A stretch of DNA of 64,000 nt, from contig OY740823.1 in the NCBI GenBank assembly GCA_963514005.1, forward strand, positions 558,001-622,000, written 5' to 3'. The stretch comes from Raja brachyura (lineage: Eukaryota). The stretch's first letter is position 1, and every line of letters starts with the position of its first letter. The position numbers and the translations under genes were made by a program. This document shows positions 59,026-59,382 of the stretch, in pieces. A model generated the notes under the pieces. That model was given only the letters and a program-made list of their open reading frames with translations, was not told where the DNA came from and did not search any database.

Positions 59026-59382
59026 GCGTGCAGTCTGGTGAATGGACCATGCGGGCTCCGTCCCATCGCGCCATCAGGAAGTCTTGCGTGGTGATACCCT
59101 GTGCGTTCGACTTCCCCTCGCAACCTCGCACCGCTATCCACGGAGCGTGGTTCAAGTACTGGTACCACTGGAAGTACACGGTGTCTTACTCCAGAGATCC
59201 CAACTACGGGATGGCCGAGTTCAAGGGGCGGGCTGAAATCGTTGGTAACCTGACAGAGAAAGACTGCTCGCTGAGGATCAATCGCCTCAGATACGAAGAC
59301 TCTGATTTATACTACTTCTACGTGGAATTGGACGGCTTTGATACTTACACCTACACACCCCCCGTCCAACTGCACGTTCTGG
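59026..59382 (+). CDS. MAG/Siglec-like gene, N-terminal V-set Ig domain exon
   Basis: Acceptor CCATTCCAG ends at 59025, donor GTGAG at 59383, phase 1/1. The peptide has the Siglec cysteine pattern SCVVIPCAFDFP...HGAWF...FKGRAEIVGNLTEKDCSLRI...DSDLYYF, which resembles MAG domain 1 as I recall it (TCVSIPCRFDFP...HGVWY...FQGRSRLLGDL...NCTL). Confidence 0.92.

What the first reader, a model, noticed from the sequence alone, without database searches (positions are those of the whole stretch)
59026..59382. MAG/Siglec-like receptor with Tyr in place of the essential sialic-acid-binding arginine
Seen: the V domain keeps the Siglec framework (CxxxxC on the B strand, E-strand Cys in KDCSL, no F-strand Cys, partner Cys in domain 2), but the F strand reads DLYYF-Y-VEL. 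Established: Siglecs have Arg here (MAG KYYF-R-GDL, R118; CD33 SYFF-R-ME), which salt-bridges the sialic acid carboxylate. Seen: the C-C' and G regions are very aromatic (WFKYWYHWKY; FDTYTY), and the exons and splice sites are intact. Inference: this is a maintained, sialic-acid-independent Siglec paralog that may bind a neutral glycan, lipid or protein ligand.
Basis: partly seen in the sequence, partly recalled or inferred. Interest (0 to 1): 0.72.

Follow-up and report, generated by a model that had tools for sequence, protein, structure and literature searches.

The report
Shark-ray Siglec lineage lacking the arginine
This is a skate-type copy of a sialic-acid-receptor-like gene family found across sharks and rays, in which the arginine that normally grips sialic acid is always a tyrosine and the neighbouring loop is unusually aromatic and conserved, which suggests a different, still unknown ligand.

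Summary
The exon at 59026-59382 encodes an intact Siglec-type V domain. Tyr98 (TAC, 59319-21) aligns with MAG R118, and the model folds like sialoadhesin and MAG.

It is neither an error nor a one-off. 29 of 29 distinct V domains at 58-100% identity, from this window and 18 named shark and ray species, have Tyr there. They form their own clade (100/99). Its C-C' segment holds 8-10 aromatic residues in 14 positions, against at most 7 in 294 other domains. V is better conserved than domain 2 in 40 of 40 ray-shark pairs, the reverse of shark Arg-bearing Siglecs (2 of 45).

Best reading: an old, selected Siglec-like lineage whose sialic-acid site was rebuilt for another conserved ligand, most likely one on a membrane. 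Binding is inferred, not shown.

Tempering points: Arg loss is common (99 of 294 other domains). Arg-to-Tyr is reported in an orangutan SIGLEC14. Some Siglecs bind without the Arg. It fails two MAG features. This copy's downstream exons lie outside the window.

The parts
57601..57682 (+). Exon with 5' UTR and signal peptide (CDS 57643-57682, MIWQYFFPLLLLQ, phase 1)
   Evidence: Sequence; tblastn of skate orthologues P0004 and P0005 hits 57643-57690 and 57595-57684. The acceptor at 57600/57601 is read from sequence only.
59026..59382 (+). V-set (Siglec-type) exon, 357 nt, phase 1/1, open
   Evidence: AlphaFold mean pLDDT 87; Foldseek TM 0.87 to sialoadhesin 1qfo and 0.88 to MAG 5lf5
59145..59147 (+). 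Ala40, a small residue before the C-strand Trp; inferred cross-strand neighbour of Tyr98
   Evidence: Ala in 28 of 29 clade domains against 3 of 293 others. The neighbour relation comes from recalled Ig V topology and was not measured.
59148..59189 (+). Aromatic C-C' segment W41-Y54 (WFKYWYHWKYTVSY), with invariant Y44, W45, W48, K49, Y50, Y54; W45xxW48 matches the C-mannosylation consensus
   Evidence: WxxW consensus from PMC5150538
59319..59321 (+). Tyr98 (TAC) at the position of the essential Siglec arginine (MAG R118)
   Evidence: Tyr in 29 of 29 distinct clade domains
59337..59354 (+). G-strand FDTYTY; Y107 and T108 align with MAG Y127 and T128 (glycerol-chain contacts), which are retained
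   Evidence: alignment; Y or H in 29 of 29 and T in 27 of 29; roles from PMC5150538
60345..60635 (+). Second Ig exon, with partner Cys29 (60431-60433) for the predicted D1-D2 disulfide
   Evidence: the domain scores 86-160 bits against clade members and at most 58 against others

Best explanation
The exon is the ligand-binding domain of an old shark-and-ray Siglec-like gene lineage that no longer binds sialic acid in the canonical way and is selected to bind another, conserved ligand.

Shown: the Siglec fold and cysteines; Arg replaced by Tyr in every member found; a set of clade-specific invariant residues on and near the same segment (A40, Y44, W45, W48, K49, Y50, Y54, Y60); an acidic former pocket; V more conserved than domain 2.

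Inferred: Tyr98 and the C-C' Trp/Tyr residues form one aromatic surface, with Lys49 as the only invariant basic residue in that loop. The ligand I think most likely is membrane-presented (a lipid or neutral glycolipid head group), bound by Trp/Tyr insertion and stacking plus Lys49, in the way Siglec-6 uses K126/W127. Within this explanation I put membrane lipid or glycolipid at about 45%, a conserved protein at about 30%, and a free neutral glycan at about 25%.

In relatives with a full model, the signal would pass through an uncharged TM to a tail with two Tyr-x-Asn motifs, the last ITIM-like in several sharks. That suggests phosphatase or Grb2-type adaptor recruitment (consensus motifs recalled). 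This copy may be membrane-bound or secreted.
For: - Tyr in 29 of 29 distinct domains, 18 named species; the next-best domain is at 37% identity.
- Clade support 100/99, with batoids grouped 95/98, in a 34-row V+D2 tree; 99 in a 64-row quick tree.
- V above D2 in identity in 40 of 40 ray-shark pairs (65% vs 56%), as in MAG (6 of 6) and unlike the shark Arg clade (2 of 45; 60% vs 73%).
- C-C' loop identity 0.83, against 0.22 in the shark Arg clade and 0.63 in MAG.
- W45 in 29/29 vs 0/269, Y50 29/29 vs 2/262, Y54 29/29 vs 3/279, A40 28/29 vs 3/293.
- Net charge of residues 96-109 is -2 to -4.
- The ligand site of MAG is the C-C' loop plus strands F and G, and R118A abolished GT1b-liposome binding (PMC5150538).
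- Precedent for a Siglec V domain binding the bilayer through Lys and Trp (PMC12953582).
- The spliced Leucoraja orthologue P0011 is also held from Logan contigs, which I read as an assembled transcript (inference).
Against: - No binding data exist here, and the ligand class is a guess from composition.
- The MAG residues that contact the sialic-acid glycerol chain are kept (Y/H107, T108), as is W6 (MAG W22).
- Pairwise identities are not independent, and the shark Arg-clade control is made of paralogues that may homogenise domain 2.
- Among recent copies seen in related runs, 18 of 23 listed exon differences change the amino acid when taken singly, one of them at invariant D93 (a biased list mixing species and paralogues).
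- This copy has Arg34 where 26 of 28 have Tyr.
- The invariance of W45/W48 could be explained by C-mannosylation alone.
- Some clade members carry CD33-related-type ITIM tails instead, which may be real shuffling or fused gene models.
Confidence: 0.65

Rival explanations
1. It still binds sialylated ligands (for example membrane gangliosides) by a non-canonical mode, with Lys49 or Tyr hydroxyls taking the carboxylate and the aromatic loop adding membrane contact.
For: K49 is invariant, 29 of 29; Y/H107, T108 and W6 are retained. [quoted passage not shown]
Against: Those three keep the Arg in nature, and Siglec-6 binding to free oligosaccharide depends entirely on it. The site here is net acidic. 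Primate Arg-mutant Siglecs are described as unable to bind sialic acid.
Confidence: 0.15
2. The conserved face is structural or a cis-partner surface: C-mannosylation at W45xxW48 and packing stabilise the fold, or the face docks on another subunit. The protein then acts as a co-receptor or soluble decoy with no external ligand of its own.
For: WxxW is present in the loop in 29 of 29 and is the canonical C-mannosylation motif. The six Amblyraja and Leucoraja gene models (P0004, P0011-P0015) end after domain 3 without a TM.
Against: It does not explain invariant Y44, Y50, Y54, Y60, K49 and Y98 together. Ray and shark members have TMs and Tyr-bearing tails.
Confidence: 0.12
3. The clade is the elasmobranch sister or co-orthologue of MAG and acts in glia or myelin on neutral myelin lipids.
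For: The best PDB sequence hit is MAG. A V-only FastTree puts it beside MAG at 0.863. The AU test does not reject Tyr+MAG (p=0.24), whereas it rejects Tyr+shark CD33-related (p=0.016). It has a MAG-like membrane-proximal domain and the same V>D2 conservation pattern. None of the 4 MAG-motif proteins I could name, of 11 found, was chondrichthyan.
Against: The V+D2 trees place it elsewhere, among fish Siglec-like families, unstarred. It lacks the N-terminal WxxW and the long PYPxxxPP loop, has a variable number of Ig domains and a different tail, and has duplicated in several species. I ran no search for a shark or ray MAG, so its absence from my hits means little.
Confidence: 0.07
4. The lineage is functional, but this particular copy is a drifting recent duplicate or truncated gene.
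For: Several variant copies appear in single runs of relatives. Listed differences are mostly amino-acid-changing (18 of 23). Y34R and a locally divergent stretch in domain 2. No third Ig exon within the 3.4 kb left in the window.
Against: Three exons are open with canonical splice sites, and the copy keeps every column that is invariant in the other 28 domains, since it is part of the 29 of 29 counts.
Confidence: 0.12

Closest known systems
MAG / Siglec-4 (mouse, PDB 5LF5/5LFR)
   Same: Best sequence hit (E 3e-14); TM 0.88; same cysteine scheme including the D1-D2 pair; Y127/T128/W22 equivalents kept; similar membrane-proximal domain in relatives; V more conserved than D2.
   Different: R118 is Tyr; no N-terminal WxxW (0 of 29); a short aromatic C-C' loop in place of the Pro-rich one; variable domain number, different tail, multi-copy; only about 33% identity; not joined to MAG in the V+D2 trees.
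Sialoadhesin / Siglec-1
   Same: Top Foldseek hit (1qfo, TM 0.87); C-C' segment of the same length, aligned without gaps.
   Different: R97 is Tyr; far fewer Ig domains in most members; Tyr-bearing tail; separate branch in the tree.
Arg-mutant primate Siglecs (human Siglec-XII R122C; ape Siglec-5/14 Arg to His; one orangutan SIGLEC14 Arg to Tyr)
   Same: Loss of the essential Arg in an intact Siglec, including the same Arg-to-Tyr change (PMC6288428 and PMC7379906, passages).
   Different: Those changes are recent and lineage-limited, and the ape ones are polymorphic. Here the change is fixed across sharks and rays and comes with a co-conserved set of new aromatic residues.
Siglec-6 (membrane-assisted ganglioside binding)
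   Same: A Lys-Trp pair in the V domain contacts the bilayer (PMC12953582, abstract and first part of the introduction); this clade has invariant W48-K49.
   Different: Siglec-6 keeps Arg122, and its pair lies after the F strand, not in the C-C' loop. This is a working analogy only.
Arg-less Siglec-like V domains of bony fishes and amphibians (Trp, Gly, Gln, Lys classes)
   Same: Siglec-type V domains without the Arg: 99 of 294 non-clade domains, 36 with Trp; one named example is a lungfish protein.
   Different: They are separate lineages below 40% identity to this one and have at most 7 aromatics in residues 41-54.

Membership tests
Siglec family | N-terminal V-set domain with intra-sheet B-E disulfide and no F-strand Cys | tested here: met
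   C25, C80, F97; fold
Siglec family | Cys pair for the D1-D2 disulfide (MAG C37-C165) | tested here: met
   C20 in V and C29 in D2 by alignment; the bond itself was not modelled
Siglec family | Essential Arg on strand F | tested here: not met
   Tyr in 29 of 29; no R or K at positions 93-101
Siglec family | Binds sialic acid | not testable with these tools
   Needs a binding assay
Siglec family | Type I membrane protein with C2-type domains and Tyr signalling motifs | tested here: inconclusive
   Met in ray and shark relatives; six skate models lack a TM; this copy's later exons are outside the window
MAG (Siglec-4) orthologues | N-terminal WxxW (W22-W25), conserved from fish to human per PMC5150538 | tested here: not met
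   0 of 29 in the first 15 residues
MAG (Siglec-4) orthologues | Pro-rich C-C' loop (PYPxxxPPVV type) and R118 | tested here: not met
   The motif scan found it in 11 proteins, none of them in the clade; Tyr at 98
MAG (Siglec-4) orthologues | Groups with MAG in a tree | tested here: inconclusive
   V-only FastTree 0.863 for; V+D2 trees against; AU p=0.24
MAG (Siglec-4) orthologues | Conserved MAG locus and glial expression | not testable with these tools
   No genome is held for the window; no expression data obtained
Shark Arg-bearing (CD33-related-like) Siglec cluster | One clade with these V+D2 domains | tested here: not met
   AU p=0.016. They may still be genomic neighbours: fused models P0003 and P0195 contain both types.

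The most novel reading that the evidence does not exclude
A Siglec-derived receptor fixed before sharks and rays split swapped sialic-acid recognition for direct recognition of a membrane lipid or neutral glycolipid. It would do so through a Trp/Tyr/Lys C-C' loop, possibly C-mannosylated at W45, packed beside Tyr98. That would be a new ligand class for the Siglec fold and a conserved component of cartilaginous-fish immunity or glia with no counterpart found in bony vertebrates.
Probability: 0.28. Interest if true: 0.78.

Novelty: new variant of a known kind. Interest (0 to 1): 0.52.

Why it matters
The primate Arg-less Siglecs in the two papers I checked are recent or polymorphic changes described as losses of sialic-acid binding. 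Here the loss is ancient, fixed, and paired with a new invariant aromatic loop that is more conserved than the rest of the protein. That is the signature expected of a gain of a new conserved ligand. It gives a clean, testable case of how a Siglec scaffold changes ligand class: one 118-residue domain, a Y98R revertant and three loop mutants. It also shows that the automatic database names for this one clade (MAG-like, sialoadhesin-like, CD22-like, SIGLEC5/10/13/14, Schwann cell myelin protein-like) hide a single undescribed shark-and-ray lineage.

Tried and rejected
**Sequencing error:** rejected.

**Another Arg at the canonical site:** rejected for strand F. R34 occurs only in this copy and lies in the B-C loop. 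R9 is Arg in 15 of 29.

**G-strand aromatics as a special feature:** rejected; they are ancestral.

**Homodimer prediction of the V domain:** no verdict (score 0.00; my alignment was not used). It is no evidence either way.

**Sequencing-run search:** no RNA holder listed.

**Whole-genome work** (copy number, downstream exons, synteny): no genome is held.

**Other homologue searches:** a search for V-only proteins of 64-209 aa with the clade profile found nothing among 413 candidates. ESM Atlas returned only generic CD22/CD33-like clusters. No chimaera or bony-vertebrate member of the clade appeared. The word-limited searches and unnamed representatives make this weak evidence of absence.

**Trees:** the careful 64-row tree did not finish, so the quick tree was used. 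A 34-row careful tree was then built from a hand-picked subset of 154 V+D2 segments. The window's own sequence is represented in these trees by its 86% skate orthologue P0004.

**dN/dS:** could not be computed, because homologues were available as proteins only.

**Earlier findings of the scan:** none.

**Literature:** ten searches of the open library listed no paper on this clade. Term searches in PMC8455134, PMC7916940, PMC7226832, PMC9207270 and PMC11979771 found no mention. Subscription reviews of Siglec evolution and all supplements were not seen and could describe it.

Full report
**1. Observation.** The finding's coordinates are exactly one coding exon on the + strand: 59026-59382, 357 nt, AG/GT, phase 1 at both ends. 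It encodes a 118-residue open V domain, P0001. A signal-peptide exon (CDS 57643-57682) lies upstream, across an intron that holds a 180-base N gap. A second Ig exon lies at 60345-60635. No further exon is in the window: tblastn with six relatives finds only these three.

Against solved structures, the best sequence hits are MAG (E 3e-14), sialoadhesin and CD33-related Siglecs. In all 5 printed alignments the F strand aligns without gaps and puts Tyr98 (TAC, 59319-21) on the essential Arg. The AlphaFold model (mean pLDDT 87, 68-sequence alignment) matches sialoadhesin at TM 0.87 and MAG at 0.88. The domain-2 partner Cys aligns with that of a gecko MAG, and MAG has the C37-C165 bond (PMC5150538, passages).

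**2. What it is.** Three searches and cluster look-ups gave 43 V domains at 50% identity or more to the window's, of 347 extracted. 29 are distinct, counting the window's own and one partial model, and all 29 have Tyr at position 98. The next-best domain is at 37%. A further partial domain, P0195, also has Tyr. The named members come from 8 batoid and 10 shark species; the closest are skates at 81-86%. Database names for them range over MAG-like, sialoadhesin-like, CD22-like and SIGLEC5/10/13/14.

Domain 2 defines the same set (86-160 bits, against at most 58). In a careful V+D2 tree of 34 hand-picked rows, the clade has support 100/99 and the batoids group at 95/98, as expected of orthologues. 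The change therefore predates the shark-ray split (roughly 250-350 million years, recalled). Fused gene models that contain both a Tyr-type and Arg-type V domain (P0003, P0195) suggest that it sits in the shark Siglec cluster. Contigs of four runs of relatives cover the codon, and none of the 40 listed differences (of 92) touches it. They show several variant copies per run.

**3. Signs of a rebuilt site.**
(a) Residues 41-54 hold 8-10 aromatic residues in all 29 domains; the 294 other distinct domains hold 1-7.
(b) Clade-specific invariants include W45 (0 of 269 elsewhere), Y50 (2 of 262), Y54 (3 of 279), Y60 (8 of 290), W48, K49, Y44, and A40 (28 of 29, against 3 of 293). By recalled Ig topology A40 is the cross-strand neighbour of Y98, so a small residue there would make room for the Tyr.
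(c) Mean pairwise identity of the C-C' loop is 0.83, against 0.22 in ten shark Arg-clade domains and 0.63 in five MAGs.
(d) V is better conserved than domain 2 in 40 of 40 ray-shark pairs (65% vs 56%). The shark Arg clade shows the reverse (2 of 45; 60% vs 73%), and MAG behaves like the Tyr clade (6 of 6). The pairs are not independent, and the control is made of paralogues.
(e) With the Arg gone, residues 96-109 have net charge -2 to -4 in 13 of 13 domains, against -1 to +1 in 15 controls.
(f) W45xxW48 matches the C-mannosylation consensus in 29 of 29, whereas the N-terminal WxxW of MAG is absent.
In MAG the ligand site is formed by exactly this C-C' loop and strands F and G.

**4. How it most likely works.** The canonical salt bridge to the sialic-acid carboxylate cannot form, and the pocket is acidic. 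The face is nevertheless held more tightly than the rest of the protein. I infer a conserved non-sialoside ligand bound by aromatic stacking or insertion, with Lys49 as the basic anchor (confidence 0.65). Among ligand classes I favour a membrane lipid or neutral glycolipid, by analogy with Siglec-6, whose K126/W127 pair contacts the bilayer (PMC12953582, abstract and first part of the introduction). A protein or free neutral glycan remains open.

Ray and shark members have an uncharged TM and mostly a tail ending in two Tyr-x-Asn motifs, the last ITIM-like in several sharks (consensus motifs recalled). A few have CD33-related-type tails, which may be shuffling or annotation fusion. The six Amblyraja and Leucoraja models stop after domain 3 without a TM, while Rhinoraja has one, so this copy could be either. 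The spliced Leucoraja protein P0011 is also held from Logan contigs, which I read as evidence that the orthologue is transcribed.

**5. Against this reading.** Nothing here measures binding. W6, Y/H107 and T108, the equivalents of MAG W22, Y127 and T128, are retained. [quoted passage not shown] Of 23 listed exon differences in related runs, 18 change the amino acid when taken singly. That shows no strong constraint among recent copies, although only one falls on an invariant column, and the list is truncated and mixes species and paralogues. This copy has Arg34 where 26 of 28 have Tyr.

**6. Relation to known families.** It is a Siglec by fold and cysteines but fails the essential-Arg test, so it should be called Siglec-like. 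It fails two MAG features. Its tree position is unresolved: beside MAG in a V-only FastTree (0.863), and among fish Siglec-like families in V+D2 trees. AU tests do not reject a grouping with MAG (p=0.24) and do reject one with the shark Arg clade (p=0.016).

Arg loss as such is known: human Siglec-XII, ape Siglec-5/14, and Arg to Tyr in one orangutan SIGLEC14 (PMC6288428 and PMC7379906, passages). It is also common among my hits: 99 of 294 non-clade domains lack the Arg, subject to alignment error.

**7. Novelty and score.** Ten searches of the open library and term searches in five fish or shark papers found no description of this clade (listed under Tried and rejected); subscription reviews and supplements were not seen. 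What is new is not the substitution but a fixed, ancient lineage spanning sharks and rays with a co-conserved aromatic loop. Verdict: a real feature and a new variant of a known kind, interest 0.52. It would merit about 0.78 if a lipid or glycolipid ligand were shown.

Noticed in passing
window 5325-6680 (-), with a probable first exon near 8898-9155 (-): Intact rhodopsin-family GPCR ORF (7tm_1, E 1e-19); it looks like the expanded elasmobranch GPR139/142-like genes (name recalled). The Rhinoraja model P0005 fuses a similar GPCR fragment to the Tyr-clade Siglec, so the two gene types are neighbours there too.
   Followed up: partly
window 54806-54984: A stretch matching residues 77-143 of the Rhinoraja model P0005 at 70-88%: conserved upstream sequence or a shared repeat that was spliced into that gene model.
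   Followed up: no
P0024, P0170-P0175, P0185, P0187, P0190, P0194 (Cetorhinus, Carcharodon): Clade members with long tandem arrays of a near-identical third Ig domain (973-1175 aa) and a short basic tail without Tyr motifs; the ectodomain length varies widely while V stays fixed.
   Followed up: no
P0028, P0033, P0157, P0196, P0197 and others: A separate class of Siglec-like V domains with Trp at the essential-Arg site (36 of 294), named examples in eel, killifish and lungfish, often beside Arg-bearing V domains in the same protein.
   Followed up: no
N-terminus of non-MAG V domains, e.g. P0059, P0065, P0068, P0072, P0092, P0157, P0198: An N-terminal WxxW, described as unique to MAG among Siglecs in PMC5150538, also occurs in several non-MAG domains, including shark, caecilian and lungfish proteins.
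   Followed up: no
window 58665-58958: Direct duplication of about 150 bp (90% identical) in the intron just upstream of the V exon.
   Followed up: no
window 17883-18713, 20960-22600, 62884-63998: Transposon remnants: LINE reverse-transcriptase fragments (RVT_1 at 20960-21721) and a broken Tc1-like transposase judged by eye (no Pfam hit for 18080-18364).
   Followed up: partly
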